DNA of 63,419 bases, counting the filler, from Thraustochytrium aureum (lineage: Eukaryota): the NCBI GenBank assembly GCA_012862495.1. It is 5 parts of 4 records of this genome, joined end to end, with 100 filler letters (N's around TTAATTAATTAA, not from the genome) between each part and the next. Parts side by side here need not be neighbours in the genome. Positions count along the whole stretch, not along the records: positions 24,318 to 43,667 come from BLSG01000193.1; 4 more parts are not named here. One strand, written 5' to 3'. Positions 35,609 to 41,744 of this stretch are shown piece after piece. Both the position numbers and the translations under genes were made by a program. The number at the start of each line of letters is the position of its first letter. The first letter of the stretch is position 1. The notes beneath the pieces were generated by a model that did no database searches, was not told the origin of the DNA, and saw only the letters and a list, made by a program, of their open reading frames with translations.

Positions 35609-38056
35609 CTACTCGAGGGGAGGGAGCTGCGCCAAGACCTGAAAGAGCGCGTCCAGGTCGTAGGTCCGAGGGGCATTAGCGCGCACGGCGACGGCCGCAG
35701 CGGCGATCCAGCGATCCTCGATGGCAGAGTACCGTGCTTGCATGCGAGGAAAGGCATTGTCGCCGGAGAGGCAGGCCTCGATCCAGGCCGCCCAGCGAGG
35801 CAGATAGACGTTTTCGGCGAGATCCGCAGACTCGCGCGAGGCGTACGAGTGCAGCAGGTCCGAGTGCGGGGACCAGTACGTGAAAAGGGTGCGAAAGTCT
35901 GCCAACTGGGCGCGGTCGACGCCCGCCCAGTCGACGTCGTCCATCGCCGTCCGCCACATCCAATGCGTCCGAAAGAGCGCCACGGTCGCCCGAATAAGTG
36001 CCAAGATCCGGTCACCCGCTATGCGCGCGTCGTCCTCGTCCACGCCGAGGACTGCGCGGTCAAGAGCCCTGACCGCAAATAGCACAGCGTCCGAGATGAC
36101 CTGGCGCCAAAAGTCGACGAGGTCATAGGCCAGCGTCTGAAACGAGGGTTCCACGCCGCCCTCGTCGAGCTGCACCGCCTCGAAAAGCTCGCGCGCGCCA
36201 CGGAACATGTCGGCGGCGCAGTTGACAAACTCTTGCCGCTTGTATGCGAGCGCCGTGGGCTGGAAGGTGGCATGCTCCATTTCAAAGCCCGGCCGCATCT
36301 CAATGACCGATTTCGTATTGCCCCACCCGGCGCGCTTCTGAGCACGGTTGTAGACGGTTTGCAGAGCGCACTGCCAGGCCGACAAGACGAGCTCTGTGGA
36401 CTTGGTTTGACGGCCGCCGAAGTGGTACCGTGCGTTCACCCAAGAAGCAAGCCACCGCCTTTCCGCTTCAGAAATTGGGGGCGCTTTGGGGGTGTGAGGC
36501 GTCATGCGGGCCGGACGGCGCCTTGCGCAGAGCTGCCCTTTTTCGAGCTGAGCCTCGGCGTCCCCTGCCCGGCCCGCTCCAGCCTCTGTCCACGCGAGGT
36601 CTAACACAAAATCGTAGACTATCTCGTTCTGCTCGATTGCCTCCATGGCCAGGCCGATGCCTTGGACGTTGCGGGAAGTGGCCAACGCCGCGTTGACTTC
36701 GCGGCGCACATGCGCGATCTCGCCAGCCAGACCCTTGGTGCCACCGAAGTTGTGCAGGTACGTCCAGACAAGCTGCTCGTCGCGGAGAACGGGGCGCAGC
36801 CGGCGCCACTGCGGGCGCTTCTCGGCGTGCAAGTCAAGGTAGAGGACGCGCTCGGCGGGCACGGCCCGCATAAAGTCGGCCACCTTTGGGGTGCCCCACT
36901 CGTCGACGTTGTGGGCAAAGCACCACATCTGCACGACGAGGACGGCGGTTGGGTCGCAGGATACAACGGGATCGTAGACGGCGCGAAAGGCAGCTGCAAC
37001 GTCGGTGGTCCCGGGACTCATCTCGTTGAAGAGGTCCACCGAGTAGTACCTTTCGGGAAAGGCGGCGAGCTCGTTGCGGTACTCGATGAGCTGCTCCCGC
37101 AAGAAGGCCTCCGAAATGACCCGGGCGATGGGGGCATCTGGGCGCAACCTCGCGAGCCCCGAGTAGGCGTTGAAAAACCCGGACCAGCTGCTCGCTTTCT
37201 CGGTGTCTTTGAGGCCGAGCTGGCCAGGGACGTGCAGGTTGAACGCAGGCAGGACCGGATTGATGCCGAGGTGGCCCATCCTGGCCAGGATCCAGTGCTG
37301 AAGGTCAAGCTGCGCGCGGAGCCAGCTCTCGCTGAGCGGCGCCCCGAGTCCCTGCACGTTGCCCATCCGGTGCCAGGACAGGTACGCCGCGCTCGTGAAG
37401 AAATCGTTCCGCTTGAAAGGTCCGCTGCCGGGCGGGACAAGCCTGGACCAGACGCGCTGCCAAAGCGCCTCTTGCCCAGTGTGTGCGAGAGCAATGTTAA
37501 TGCCGCGCAGGCTCATCCAGTCGAGTTCTTGCTCCCAGCGACGGCGGCCCCACCATGCCATGGAATAGCTCCACGTGACCTGGTTGAGGTAGTAGCGGTG
37601 CTTTACCCGGGACGCGCACGGTCTTGCAAAGCAGGGCAGCGCTGCGGCGAGGTCTTGCGTGCGGGCGGCGAAAAGCCGGTCAAGGCAGGCCGCGCTGCGC
37701 TGCAGCGGCTCGCCGCGCGACGCCCACGACAAGAGCTCCACCCCGCAAAATGACCTGTACAGGGTGCCCAGGCCGCGGCCGAGGGCCGAGATGGTCGTAC
37801 CGCGAATGCGCAGAATCGCGGCTGTGGCCCCGCCCTCGCGGGCTTCCTCTGCCAGCTGGAACTGGAAGCAGTCCGTGCCGCCTTCCGCTCCGCACAGCCC
37901 GTCGTGGGCCTCGAGGCGAAAGTGCAGGCGGTCGACATCGCGCAGGGGGACTCGGCGTCGCGCCAGCAGGTAGATCCCTCGCGTATCCGGCTGGCGGATC
38001 GCAGCCCCTTCCGGCGCCTCGCCGCCGCGGCACACCGGTGCAGGCCCCACGCCAAG
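35609..38056 (-). CDS. NAGLU: Alpha-N-acetylglucosaminidase (GH89), N-terminus in gap
   Basis: RYYLNQVTWSYSMAWW, WEQELDWMSLRGIN, WHRMGN, DLFNEM, LHNFGG and GIGLAMEAIEQN. Confidence 0.93.
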   Translation of the reverse strand, partial: LGVGPAPVCRGGEAPEGAAIRQPDTRGIYLLARRRVPLRDVDRLHFRLEAHDGLCGAEGGTDCFQFQLAEEAREGGATAAILRIRGTTISALGRGLGTLYRSFCGVELLSWASRGEPLQRSAACLDRLFAARTQDLAAALPCFARPCASRVKHRYYLNQVTWSYSMAWWGRRRWEQELDWMSLRGINIALAHTGQEALWQRVWSRLVPPGSGPFKRNDFFTSAAYLSWHRMGNVQGLGAPLSESWLRAQLDLQHWILARMGHLGINPVLPAFNLHVPGQLGLKDTEKASSWSGFFNAYSGLARLRPDAPIARVISEAFLREQLIEYRNELAAFPERYYSVDLFNEMSPGTTDVAAAFRAVYDPVVSCDPTAVLVVQMWCFAHNVDEWGTPKVADFMRAVPAERVLYLDLHAEKRPQWRRLRPVLRDEQLVWTYLHNFGGTKGLAGEIAHVRREVNAALATSRNVQGIGLAMEAIEQNEIVYDFVLDLAWTEAGAGRAGDAEAQLEKGQLCARRRPARMTPHTPKAPPISEAERRWLASWVNARYHFGGRQTKSTELVLSAWQCALQTVYNRAQKRAGWGNTKSVIEMRPGFEMEHATFQPTALAYKRQEFVNCAADMFRGARELFEAVQLDEGGVEPSFQTLAYDLVDFWRQVISDAVLFAVRALDRAVLGVDEDDARIAGDRILALIRATVALFRTHWMWRTAMDDVDWAGVDRAQLADFRTLFTYWSPHSDLLHSYASRESADLAENVYLPRWAAWIEACLSGDNAFPRMQARYSAIEDRWIAAAAVAVRANAPRTYDLDALFQVLAQLPPLE

Positions 38057-38236
38057 NNNNNNNNNNNNNNNNNNNNNNNNNNNNNNNNNNNNNNNNNNNN
38101 NNNNNNNNNNNNNNNNNNNNNNNNNNNNNNNNNNNNNNNNNNNNNNNNNNNNNNNNNNNNNNNNNNNNNNNNNNNNNNNNNNNNNNNNNNNNNNNNNNNN
38201 NNNNNNNNNNNNNNNNNNNNNNNNNNNNNNNGCGCG

Positions 38237-39489
38237 ATGGAGGGCGACGGGGCGCTGGTGTGGGCGCTGCTGGGCGATGCGGTGAGCGCGGCGATGCACT
38301 GGTATTATGACGAGGATGCGCTGGCGGAGCAGTTTGGGGCGGTGCCAACGGAGGAGATTGTGGCGGTCCCGCGCGGCGTCGCGCACCCGGACTCGCATGG
38401 GTACTTTGGTGCGGTGGACCCGCTCGACAGGACGCAGCACCCGTTTGACCTCTTCCATGACCGCGCCGCGATGTTTGCGGTGCGGGGGCAGCACTACCAC
38501 GCCACGCTCGGACACGGCGAGGTGACGCTCACCTGCGCACTTGCCGTGCAGCTGCAGCTGGAGCTCGCGGCGCGCGGCGGCGCGTACGACGCGGCAGCGT
38601 ACTTGCGTAGATACGAGGAAACGCTGCTGGTGCCCGGGCGGCATCACGACCTCTACGTGGAGAAGTCGCACAGGTCGTTTTTCCGCCGCAAGGCTGCCGA
38701 GCAGGCGGCCTTTGGAGACGGGGTGCCACCGCGCGGGGACGGCGAAGAGGACTGCCTCGGCGGCCTTGTGCTCGCGCTGCCGCTGATGCTGCGTCGGCGC
38801 GACGATCCGGTCGCACAAGTCGACGAGCACGGTGGCCCGGTCGAGGTGCGGCGTGGCGCGGACGCCTGGGTGACGCGCGAGCAAGGCCCTGCTATTGAGG
38901 GGACAGCACTGCCGGCGCGCAAGTTTACAGCTGGAGCCTGGGTGGCGCGCCGCAGCCCGCTGTGGGTAGACGCTGCGTCGCACGTGGCGCTGACTCACGG
39001 TGAGCTAGGGCTTGTTCTTGCGCAAGTGCCTTGGAGGCGGCCTTTGGCGCCTTGCGGAGCGGCGCCGACCCTCGCGCGACGGCACGCGAGCTGCTGCTGT
39101 TGTCGTGCCGATACAGTGAGACCGCGCGCGCCTTGCTCAGGGCGCCGAGCGATTTCGACGTGGAGCTCTGTGATGCGGTGCGACGTGTTGGGTCGGCCTG
39201 TCGCGAGGGTTCGCCGCGGAGTGTGTCCAAGGCCCTTCGCGGGACCTGGCTGTGCGGTCCTCGGTTTCAACGATGATATTTGCGGATGGGGGCGCTCGGC
39301 GGGGTGCTTGTGCTCTTCATGGCTTGGCTCGAGCACCGCGCCGAGCTGCGCCCTGAGCGGATGCTGGCGATCAACGCCCACCTTGGCGGGGACAACACAC
39401 ACCGAGGTTCGCTGCTTGGTGCGCTGATGGCGAGCACGGACCGTTCGTTGGAGCCTCGGCAGTCGTGGCGCGACGTGTGCAAGCTGTAG
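38237..39489 (+). CDS. ADP-ribosylglycohydrolase-family protein, probable selenoprotein (in-frame TGA 39274-39276); frameshift within ~39003-39030
   Basis: GALVWALLGDAVSAAMHWYYD, HYH..LGHGEVTL, PGRHHDLYVE and C-terminal NAHLGGDNTHRGSLLGAL. ORFs 39031-39276 and 39280-39489 are in the same frame, separated only by TGA TAT. Confidence 0.82.
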
Positions 39490-39516
39490 GGGTCTAGGCG
39501 GCCGTCGGTTGGTTTG

Positions 39517-39599
39517 CTCGATCGGGCCGAATGACGGCGTGTGTGCCTCAAGTCCCCACCTTTGGGGGGCGGCGCGACGCTTGAGGGTGCCCGGTCGGG
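39517..39599 (+). promoter_or_regulatory. Eukaryotic type II SECIS-like element in 3' UTR
   Basis: Helix I GATCGGGC/GCCCGGTC. Core ATGAC (39531-39535)/TGAG (39582-39585). Helix II GGCGTGTGTGCC/GGCGGCGCGACGCT with two bulges. Unpaired AA at 39550-39551 and apical mini-helix CCCCA/TGGGG. Confidence 0.78.
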
Positions 39600-39798
39600 G
39601 GACGGCGTTTCGGCGAGCCAGCCAGCCGGCTTGGAGGCGAACGAGACTCGGCCTCGTTTCTGGCCCCGGACGTCTGACGCAACGGGGGGAACAAAACGGC
39701 ATGTGAGCAACACAATTGATGCAATAGACAAGAACAAAAAGTGACCATAGGTGCAGCCCAGCAGTGCAGCGGGGATCCAGAGCGTGCCGGAAAACTCG

Positions 39799-41070
39799 CT
39801 AGATCTCAGCATGGGCGGCGCTTTCTGCGTCAAAGGACGTGTGCTTGGAGCCGAACGAGACTCGCTTGGAGTCATCTGCAGCGGACATGGCCAGCGAGTC
39901 GCGGGAGGCGACCGAGCCCAGGCTGGTGCGCGAGGGCTTGCCGTCAAAGTGGTAGAATTTGTAGGCCATGTAGATGAGAATCGCGACGCAGTTGGCGATG
40001 CCGCACGCGTCCTTGACCGTCTCGTTGTACCAGTACGAGCTGTCCGCGTAGAGCTCGTAGACGTCGGCGAAGGTGAGGATAACGTAGCGCATGAGCAGCG
40101 TGAGCGTGCGCGCCTGCACGAACAGGTGCGGGTCGAGCGTCAAAAACGAGCGCGGAAAGTTGACAAAAATCGCGCTGATCAACACGACGCAGATCACCGC
40201 GAAGTGCTCCTTGCGCTCGTCATACGAAAAAGTGGCGTTCCAGGTGCAGTACATGATAACCCAAAACCAATCCGTTTCGTAGACCATGTCGTAGAAAGCT
40301 GCGTGCGAGTTGTCAATGAACAGAACGTGGCGCCAGGTCGGGCGTAGGTTTGCGAAAAAACAGACCTTGCGGTCCCAGCGGTTGAAGTACGCGCGGGGCA
40401 TGGCCAGGACGAGCCAAAAGCCGGCAAATCCGTTAAAGTAGTTTCCGCGGGACAGGTCGGCGGCGGTGGCCTCGGCGATGTTGACTGCCAGGGCGCCCCA
40501 GAGCAGCCAGCACCAGACGTTGCTGTCGAGGAGCTCGTTAGGGGGGAATAGTCGATCGCCCATAAAGCGGCCGAACGCGAGCCATGGGTCCCAAACGCCT
40601 TCTTCGTAGAAGCCCACCTTTTCGTTCTTGTTCTGGCGCAGGATGTTGTCGATGCGGAAGGTGGCCACGAAAAAGGCCCCCGCGAAGACAGAGAATAGCT
40701 TGATGAACTCGAACGCGCTCTCCAGGTCGCCCTTGAGCCCTGCGTAGGGGATGATGAGGAGGAGGAGCGAGACCGTGAGCACAAAGCCCAGCACGGGCCA
40801 CACGCGGTTGAGGCCGTAGAAGAGCATGAACGCGAGAAAGCAAAGGAAGAGCGTCATGCCGAAGAACCAGCAGTTGGTTCCGAGGCAGCGCGCAAGGGGG
40901 GCGCTCAAGGTGACGTTGGTCAGGTCGTCCCCGACTTGGTATCCGGGGAGCTGCACGTTGGTCACCAAGCTCGTGGTGACAAAGAATGCGGCAAGCACCA
41001 GCAAGAGCAGCCCGGCGCACGCCAACTCTGCGCGCGCCTGTCGCACCGGCTTGTTTCCGCGCATGCCCAT
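39799..41070 (-). CDS. Multi-pass membrane protein, DUF5692-like (start uncertain; ORF open to 41283)
   Basis: FEFIKLFS, LAVNIAEA..D, NGFAG, DM...WFWVIMYCTWN and QARTLTL resemble DUF5692 motifs as I recall them. Confidence 0.6.
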   Translation of the reverse strand: MGMRGNKPVRQARAELACAGLLLLVLAAFFVTTSLVTNVQLPGYQVGDDLTNVTLSAPLARCLGTNCWFFGMTLFLCFLAFMLFYGLNRVWPVLGFVLTVSLLLLIIPYAGLKGDLESAFEFIKLFSVFAGAFFVATFRIDNILRQNKNEKVGFYEEGVWDPWLAFGRFMGDRLFPPNELLDSNVWCWLLWGALAVNIAEATAADLSRGNYFNGFAGFWLVLAMPRAYFNRWDRKVCFFANLRPTWRHVLFIDNSHAAFYDMVYETDWFWVIMYCTWNATFSYDERKEHFAVICVVLISAIFVNFPRSFLTLDPHLFVQARTLTLLMRYVILTFADVYELYADSSYWYNETVKDACGIANCVAILIYMAYKFYHFDGKPSRTSLGSVASRDSLAMSAADDSKRVSFGSKHTSFDAESAAHAEI

Positions 41071-41744
41071 CCGCAGCTGCCGCCCTACGTGCACGCCAAG
41101 CTCAGGCATGGTGACCGTCGTGAGCTTGAGGCGACCAAGTCGGATGCTGGTTGCCTCTGGCGCAGAAAGCGCGGGCAACGAGCTCAGGAAGCGAGAGCCA
41201 CGAGCGCAGAAAGCGAGAGCAGCGAGCTGGGCGTCAGGGTCTGCAGTACTGGGCACCAGCGCCGCGTCCCACGCCAGAGCCAAGGCCGGCCTTGTCTTGC
41301 CGCTGGATACACCGCGTGATCCGCCTCTAGTTTCGCGCCGTCCTTGCCCCGTTCATGTTGGCCCGGGCAAACCGGTCCGGTACGCACCCATGACAGAAGC
41401 GAATCAGTCCGAGAGGGCGATTGCCAGTGGAGTAGGACAAGCCAAGCGATCGAAGTCGAACTGCAAGGAAACAGGTGTGCACCCTACGTTCAGGCTCAGG
41501 CTGGCTGGCTTTCGACGGTAGGGTAGGTAGTAGGAAGGAGTACTTTCGAGGCAGTGCAGCCATTTGCGCTTGCGTCCCACCCGACTGGGCTGGGTGGTTT
41601 GGGTCGGTCAAAGCAACTCAGAAACGCAGAACACACAGCACAGTTTGTTTGGAATGCGAGACAGCCAGCATGAGGCATCAGCCAGCATGAGGCGTCAGCC
41701 GCACACGCACAAGGTCAATAGATTCGAGGCCGCTCGCCGCCACG

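What the first reader, a model, noticed from the sequence alone, without database searches (positions are those of the whole stretch)
38237..39599. Probable unannotated selenoprotein: ADP-ribosylglycohydrolase with in-frame UGA and a 3'-UTR SECIS
Seen in sequence: the frame ...CGPRFQR-TGA-YLRMG...NAHLGGDNTHRGSLLGAL-...TAG is broken only by TGA 39274-39276, and the conserved family C-terminal motif (GGDN..RG..LGAL) lies after it. A SECIS-like hairpin begins about 30 nt after the TAG. Established knowledge: eukaryotic Sec insertion needs such a 3'-UTR SECIS, and SelJ is a Sec-containing member of this superfamily. Inference: from memory, homologues of the HWYY/HYH subfamily read roughly FSxACYI here, so UGA would replace Cys before Tyr. 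This subfamily looks different from classical SelJ, which would suggest an independent Cys-to-Sec gain. Caveat: the assembly is indel-prone, and adding one T gives RFSTM instead.
Basis: partly seen in the sequence, partly recalled or inferred. Interest (0 to 1): 0.92.

Follow-up and report, generated by a model that had tools for sequence, protein, structure and literature searches.

The report
Hidden selenoprotein clade, ADP-ribosylhydrolase fold
A protist gene carries an internal UGA 'stop' and a selenocysteine-signal hairpin, and its relatives in other eukaryotes carry the same UGA where bacteria have cysteine, so it very likely encodes an overlooked selenium protein, predicted to use selenium beside an ADP-ribose pocket that has lost the usual metal-binding residues.

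Summary
Confirmed and widened. TGA 39274-39276 is real: contigs of three runs span it without a gap. The assembly error lies elsewhere, a missing T after 39014; with it the gene is one 417-codon frame (38237-39489, U347). A type II SECIS starts 42 nt after the TAG. The site is Cys in 34 of 39 full-length homologues outside the gene's clade. All 9 true relatives fetched as DNA have TGA there (8 with an open frame through GGDN..R, 1 after an intron), five with a complete or nearly complete SECIS. 33 of 57 clade-marked database proteins stop exactly before this site. In prokaryotic genomes the pattern gave 0 TGA against at least 119 TGC hits. The UGA forms make one clade (SH-aLRT 99) with a private invariant Cys. 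The fold is ARH/DraG. Sec precedes the equivalent of adenine-stacking DraG Tyr212, and most metal ligands are replaced. Sec insertion and function are inferred, and the organism's Sec machinery could not be checked. No SelJ sequence could be fetched, so 'independent of SelJ' is untested: this is either a new family or a large, unrecognised SelJ-related branch.

The parts
38237..39489 (+). Intronless CDS of an ARH-fold (PF03747) protein, 417 aa with U347; the assembly lacks one T after 39014
   Evidence: read-through relatives score PF03747 at E 1e-33 and 4e-30 over the whole model
38297..38308 (+). HWYY motif; the His stands where DraG has the Glu-flap Glu28
   Evidence: H in 38 of 38 clade rows and 38 of 39 others; DraG alignment
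38753..38755 (+). Cys173 (EEDCLGG), clade-specific invariant Cys, candidate partner of Sec
   Evidence: C in 38 of 38 clade rows; C in 2 of 39 other rows, 18 of which are gaps
39014..39015 (+). Assembly frameshift (one T missing)
   Evidence: 3 of 4 runs show the extra T; the fourth's loose end agrees
39274..39276 (+). In-frame TGA, inferred Sec347, followed by Tyr equivalent to DraG Tyr212
39385..39408 (+). GGDNTHRG motif after the UGA (DraG GGDADT: first Asp kept, second Asp and Thr replaced)
39516..39599 (+). Type II SECIS-like element: helix I, AUGAC core 39531-39535, helix II, unpaired AA 39550-39551, apical mini-helix, UGAG core 39582-39585
   Evidence: no Rfam hit

Best explanation
The gene has an in-frame UGA at a conserved cysteine position and a 3'-UTR SECIS-type hairpin, so it very likely encodes a 417-aa selenoprotein of the ADP-ribosylhydrolase fold, predicted to work as a Sec/Cys redox enzyme or switch at an ADP-ribose-type pocket rather than as a classical two-metal hydrolase. 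Shown: the UGA, the open conserved frame after it, the hairpin, the same UGA (often with SECIS) in relatives, Cys at this column in other homologues, and the ARH fold of a relative's model. Inferred: SBP2/eEFSec-dependent Sec insertion (about 0.93). Inferred, about 0.5: Sec347 sits just before the adenine-stacking Tyr and acts as nucleophile or redox residue, resolved by Cys173 on the neighbouring GNG-equivalent loop. The replaced metal ligands (Glu28 to His, Asp60/Asp61 to Leu/Thr or Asn, Asp245/Thr246 lost) mean the substrate or chemistry differs from DraG, ARH1 and ARH3.
For: TGA spanned without gaps by contigs of 3 of 4 runs from 2 studies. Nearest proteins P0003 (Mucochytrium quahogii) and P0004 end at GP[KR]WNR, the residue before the UGA. 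33 of 57 clade-marked hits end at this point; 1 of 93 unmarked do. 9 of 10 fetched loci are homologues: 8 have TGA plus 114-143 open codons with GGDN..R, and L003 has TGA after a 92-nt GT-AG intron. SECIS complete in L001, L005, L009 and nearly complete, cut by the contig end, in L004 and L007. L009 hits Rfam SECIS_1 at 33.8 bits, E 0.0014. Helix II has 2 compensatory and 2 one-sided changes among 5 sequences. The U column is Cys in 34 of 39 outside homologues and in clade member P0030. Six Pfam-bearing window ORFs (3602 codons) use TGG 60 times and TGY 61 times, and one ends at TGA, so UGA is not generally reassigned (partly circular, as the ORFs are stop-to-stop). Model pLDDT 90.1, pTM 0.92; 9 ARH chains at Z 20.7-28.7, next 3.6. 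DraG mapping (residue roles from PMC7050489 section 22).
Against: No genome is held, so tRNA-Sec, eEFSec, SBP2 and SPS2 are unchecked; no tRNA in the window. The window's hairpin has no Rfam match and an unremarkable z-score; only 1 of 9 loci hit SECIS_1, below the gathering score. Seven of the nine loci are close AT-rich relatives, so the DNA evidence covers about four lineages including the window. For P0003, P0004 and most truncated proteins the stop codon itself was not seen, and L003 shows an intron donor can create a false TGA at this spot. The end-motif pattern was written after looking at the hits. The covariation rests on 5 related sequences, with 10 of 500 shuffles as high. No coordinates were available, so Sec-Cys173 proximity is not measured. 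No activity data.
Confidence: 0.9

Rival explanations
1. It is a selenoprotein but simply a divergent member of the known SELENOJ family, with one ancient Sec at the same site, perhaps already among the algal SELENOJ genes of Jiang et al. 2020.
For: SELENOJ is the known Sec-bearing branch of this superfamily (PMC13134290 passage). Algal SELENOJ Sec and Cys forms are reported (PMC7539508 passages). From recall, with no call, SelJ shares the N-terminal His-Trp-x-Tyr motif and a Sec about 30 residues before a GG..RG motif.
Against: No hit among the 150 listed of 412 or the 47, nor any of the 22 look-ups, was named SelJ or crystallin, though most carry no name. The best relatives outside the clade are Cys forms, many bacterial, at E 1e-12 to 1e-29. 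Prokaryotes gave 0 TGA against at least 119 TGC. Jiang ranks SELENOJ among the least widespread algal selenoproteins.
Confidence: 0.35
2. UGA is a true stop or a regulated read-through; the product is a truncated 346-aa protein and the hairpin is incidental.
For: Databases list these proteins as ending here, and the downstream part as separate small ORFs (P0199-P0208). Window hairpin z -1.33 and no Rfam hit.
Against: The stop is TGA in 9 of 9 loci, never TAA or TAG, including AT-rich genomes that end the gene with TAA. The downstream frame keeps the core helices of the fold (model helices 300-375). SECIS elements follow. The column is Cys elsewhere.
Confidence: 0.05
3. UGA is read as Cys or Trp by a variant nuclear code, or the TGA is a sequencing artefact.
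For: The assembly has a nearby indel and many N gaps.
Against: Three runs agree on TGA. TGG and TGY are used normally and TGA ends genes in the window and in L007 and L008. Relatives with GC 0.31-0.68 all keep TGA at this one site.
Confidence: 0.03

Closest known systems
SELENOJ / SelJ and jellyfish J1-crystallins (Castellano 2005; not readable here, described through PMC13134290 and PMC7539508)
   Same: Sec-containing protein of the ADP-ribosylhydrolase superfamily with a 3'-UTR SECIS; function unknown; from recall a similar Sec position.
   Different: Not retrieved by any profile of this clade. This clade's nearest kin found are HWYY/GGDNxHRG Cys proteins of bacteria and protists. It has U-Y, an HP.S..Y insertion and an invariant DC/EC cysteine. 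Direct comparison could not be run.
Uncharacterised bacterial and protist PF03747 'HWYY...SPACY...GGDNCHRG' proteins
   Same: Same motifs, same replaced metal ligands, Cys at the Sec column (34 of 39).
   Different: Cys rather than UGA (0 TGA vs at least 119 TGC pattern hits); they mostly lack the clade's second Cys; separate side of the tree.
DraG of Rhodospirillum rubrum (2woc/2woe), MJ1187 (1t5j), ARH1, ARH3, Tri1
   Same: Fold (Z 20.7-28.7); Tyr212 equivalent, Thr59 and Asp243 kept.
   Different: Glu28, Asp60, Asp61, Asp245 and Thr246 are replaced, so the binuclear Mn/Mg centre is probably absent. 9-23% identity. Far below the NCBIfam cut-offs for DraG and Tri1.

Membership tests
Eukaryotic selenoprotein gene | In-frame UGA with conserved coding sequence on both sides | tested here: met
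Eukaryotic selenoprotein gene | UGA aligns with Cys or UGA in homologues | tested here: met
   Cys in 34 of 39; TGA in 9 of 9 loci
Eukaryotic selenoprotein gene | 3'-UTR SECIS (AUGA/GA core, helix II, unpaired AA) | tested here: met
   own pattern and folding; Rfam missed the window element but hit relative L009
Eukaryotic selenoprotein gene | Sec machinery in the genome | not testable with these tools
   no genome held
Eukaryotic selenoprotein gene | Se incorporation and a transcript that includes the SECIS | not testable with these tools
   only contigs; run type guessed
ADP-ribosylglycohydrolase superfamily (PF03747) | Profile match and alpha-helical ARH fold | tested here: met
   read-through relatives 117 and 106 bits against cut-off 26.2; fold; the window's C-terminal piece alone scores only E 0.011
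Catalytic ARH classes (DraG, ARH1, ARH3, Tri1) | Binuclear metal ligands Glu, Thr-Asp-Asp, Asp-x-Asp-Thr | tested here: not met
   His; T-L-T/N; D-N-T/C-N/H-R; the ligand list beyond Glu28 and Asp97 is recalled
Catalytic ARH classes (DraG, ARH1) | Adenine-stacking Tyr (DraG Tyr212) | tested here: met
   Tyr after Sec in 9 of 9 full-length clade rows; alignment offset checked with D97N
SELENOJ | Groups with fish SelJ and J1-crystallins in a tree | not testable with these tools
   no SelJ sequence reachable
SELENOJ | Sec at the SelJ column | not tested
   only recalled similarity; alignment figures and supplements unreadable

The most novel reading that the evidence does not exclude
An undescribed, widespread eukaryotic selenoprotein family (labyrinthulomycete-like stramenopiles, a unicellular holozoan, AT-rich and GC-rich metagenome lineages). 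It gained Sec independently of SelJ at a nucleotide-pocket cysteine of a metal-less ARH fold and co-acquired a resolving Cys. It would be a non-thioredoxin redox enzyme acting on ADP-ribose-type substrates, hidden because databases cut it at the UGA, and it would give the first mechanistic handle on Sec in this fold.
Probability: 0.5. Interest if true: 0.8.

Novelty: new variant of a known kind. Interest (0 to 1): 0.66.

Why it matters
Most selenoproteins are thioredoxin-like oxidoreductases, and the one Sec-bearing ARH-fold family, SELENOJ, is described as functionally uncharacterised (PMC13134290). This clade shows Sec at a defined place, next to the adenine-stacking Tyr, in a pocket without the metal ligands and with a private second Cys. 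Easily expressed bacterial Cys homologues exist, so the role of Sec in this fold becomes testable, and a link between selenium redox chemistry and ADP-ribose metabolism is suggested. In practice, at least 33 representative proteins at 50% identity appear truncated at this codon in public collections and need re-annotation.

Tried and rejected
No RNA holder was listed on record. X2 and X3 contigs stop at 39508/39500 and resume at 39601, leaving the hairpin uncovered while X1 covers it; one study, run type guessed, so no evidence either way. X5-X8 do not reach the UGA. Rfam missed the window hairpin. MAFFT could not align the GC-rich type II element with the short AT-rich ones, so no covariance model was built. 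The search for related loci found no conserved stretch in three alignments, so a DNA pattern was used; it needs HWYY plus HP[DN]SW.Y[FY] without an intron, so it samples the clade narrowly; 1 of 10 loci (L010) was a chance match and was dropped. Automatic counting of truncation columns failed because MAFFT scattered the C-termini; an end-motif count was used instead. The bootstrap tree did not finish; support is SH-aLRT only, unrooted, 92 rows x 259 columns filled in at least 80% of rows; fragments, two-domain and very long hits were left out. PDB search with the 3-row profile gave nothing. ESM Atlas gave only generic ADP-ribosylglycohydrolase clusters at 0.91-0.92 with low recognition; the second search did not complete. 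Literature: nine searches found no description of this clade. Read: passages of PMC7539508 plus its section 5; passages of PMC3316567, PMC13134290, PMC3473315, PMC6627142; term search of PMC13188914 (0 hits); passages and section 22 of PMC7050489; term searches in the supplements of PMC13134290, PMC12822975, PMC2958745, PMC6627142 (no SelJ sequences). Castellano 2005 is not held, and the supplements of PMC7539508 (Fig. S6B, algal SELENOJ alignment) and PMC3473315 were unreadable; these bear directly on novelty. Earlier scan findings: none on this family. No complex job was sent; no binding claim needed it.

Full report
Observation. The region holds an ORF from ATG 38237, just after an N gap, and a second frame 39004-39489 with one TGA at 39274-39276. 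The two are one gene. Contigs of runs X1, X2 and X4 carry an extra T after 39014, and X3's loose end agrees, which gives 417 codons with UGA at 347. X1, X2 and X3 span the TGA with no gap. X1 may be the source sample; X2-X4 are a second study at 95-99% identity. No intron is needed: the nearest homologues align through the middle of the ORF.

The hairpin. 42 nt after the TAG lies AUGAC, an 11-pair helix II with one bulge, unpaired AA, an apical mini-helix and UGAG, closed by a long helix I: a type II SECIS by established criteria. My pattern found 6 hits on both strands of the window; this is the only + strand hit. Energy alone is unremarkable (z -1.33) and Rfam gave nothing.

Homologues. The only two close proteins, P0003 (Mucochytrium quahogii, 45% identity) and P0004 (MMETSP), both end in GP[KR]WNR, matching GPRFQR before the UGA. 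This suggests, but does not show, a labyrinthulomycete-like source. A profile search gave 412 hits at E<=0.001, 150 listed. 57 of the 150 carry an HP.S..Y insertion; 33 of these end in FSxR, FSIS, ISNR, FPIA or GPxWNR, 21 are fragments or end elsewhere, and 3 have the C-terminal GG[DE] motif. Of the 93 without the marker, 1 ends so and 39 are full length (pattern written after inspection). P0030 reads FSVR-C-Y and runs on to GGDN, the one Cys member of the clade. P0008 is a EukProt 'Clim_evm' gene, a label I recall as the holozoan Corallochytrium limacisporum. In alignment A9 the window's U column is Cys in 34 of 39 full-length homologues outside the clade.

DNA of relatives. A pattern scan of JGI metagenomes gave 10 loci, 9 true homologues. 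Eight have TGA in frame (ISNR-U-YIR in seven AT-rich loci, FSVR-U-YAQ in L008) followed by 114-143 codons containing GGDN..R. In L003 an intron donor makes a false TGA, but the codon after the 92-nt intron is again TGA followed by Tyr. SECIS elements are complete in L001, L005 and L009, nearly complete in L004 and L007, and cut after the AUGA by the contig end in L002, L006 and L008; L003 ends in coding sequence. L009 scores 33.8 bits on Rfam SECIS_1 (E 0.0014, gathering 35). Five aligned elements keep helix II with 2 compensatory changes (10 of 500 shuffles as high; related sequences). Databases split these genes in two (P0199-P0208). In GTDB genomes the same motif pattern gave 0 hits with TGA and at least 119, all bacterial, with TGC.

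Phylogeny. In an unrooted IQ-TREE quick tree (92 rows, 259 mostly N-terminal columns) the 45 UGA-type, truncated and P0030 rows form one side of a branch (SH-aLRT 99). The window groups with P0003 and P0004 (97) and then P0008 (95) (FastTree agrees, 0.995). There is no outgroup and no SelJ, so the direction of change is not shown. Cys in all bacteria sampled makes Cys-to-Sec at the base of the clade the simpler reading.

Structure and mechanism. An AlphaFold model of relative P0165 (U as C; pLDDT 90.1, pTM 0.92) matches only ARH-fold chains (Foldseek best E 3.8e-9; Z 20.7-28.7 for nine chains, next 3.6). Profile alignment to R. rubrum DraG (offset 5 fixed by the D97N variant) puts the Tyr after Sec on Tyr212, which stacks the adenine of ADP-ribose (PMC7050489 section 22). 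Glu28 is His in 76 of 77 rows; Thr59-Asp60-Asp61 reads T-L-T/N; Asp243-x-Asp245-Thr246 reads D-N-T/C-N/H-R. All characterised ARH enzymes need a binuclear metal centre, so classical catalysis is probably absent, in the bacterial Cys forms too. A Cys at the GNG-equivalent loop (window Cys173) is present in 38 of 38 clade rows but in 2 of 39 others (18 gapped). From recalled ARH structures both loops line the ADP-ribose site. I therefore infer a Sec347/Cys173 redox pair or Sec nucleophile acting on an ADP-ribose-type ligand (about 0.5). A redox-switched binder or a His/Asp single-metal enzyme (His21, Asp138) are the alternatives. Distances could not be measured.

Relation to known families. It works like a eukaryotic SECIS-dependent selenoprotein and is an ARH-superfamily member, but not a DraG/ARH1/ARH3/Tri1-class enzyme. 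SELENOJ is the known Sec branch of the superfamily, uncharacterised, reported in fish, sea urchin, amphioxus (PMC13134290) and some algae (PMC7539508). No SelJ sequence was reachable, and the algal alignment figure was unreadable. From recall the Sec site is probably homologous, so membership is open: about 0.35 that this is best called divergent SELENOJ, about 0.5 that it is a separate family with its own gain. Nine paper searches found no description of it; the library lacks most subscription journals.

Verdict. A real gene and very likely a selenoprotein (0.9), representing a broad, systematically truncated eukaryotic clade. New variant of a known kind; interest 0.66.

Noticed in passing
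window 35609-38056 (-) and gap 38057-38231: An alpha-N-acetylglucosaminidase (NAGLU, E 4.5e-93) lies head-to-head with the finding; both starts and any shared promoter fall in or beside a 175-base N gap. X2 holds 110 bases reaching into the gap.
   Followed up: no
window 39799-41352 (-): Convergent membrane-protein-like ORF (517 codons stop to stop) without a Pfam match; X2 and X3 contigs on it end at 39601, right at the 3' foot of the SECIS hairpin.
   Followed up: no
L013, L016, L033, L049, L052, L064 (downstream ORF): In 6 of 60 scanned neighbours of bacterial Cys forms (60 of 84 extracted from 119 loci), all Planctomycetota, the next gene has an FGE-sulfatase domain, 3 with DinB_2, the EgtB/OvoA/SenA-type architecture (name recalled); also 2 rhodaneses and 1 SBP56. 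One lineage, so only a hint of a sulfur or selenium link.
   Followed up: partly
L001, L002, L004-L007, L009 C-termini: The AT-rich subgroup adds a C-terminal tail with a conserved CxxCxxGxC motif, a possible metal site or second redox motif, absent from the window protein.
   Followed up: no
L003:2061-2152: An intron interrupts the codon just before the Sec UGA, and its donor creates a false in-frame TGA; this can mimic Sec truncation in unspliced gene calls.
   Followed up: yes
P0010 and P0114: Tandem two-domain Cys/other-type members of the HWYY family (780 and 775 aa); P0010 is from Creolimax fragrantissima.
   Followed up: no
P0071, P0095, P0109, P0115, P0134: A well-supported subgroup (SH-aLRT 95) of full-length homologues has lost the Cys at the Sec column (P, S or A).
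   Followed up: no
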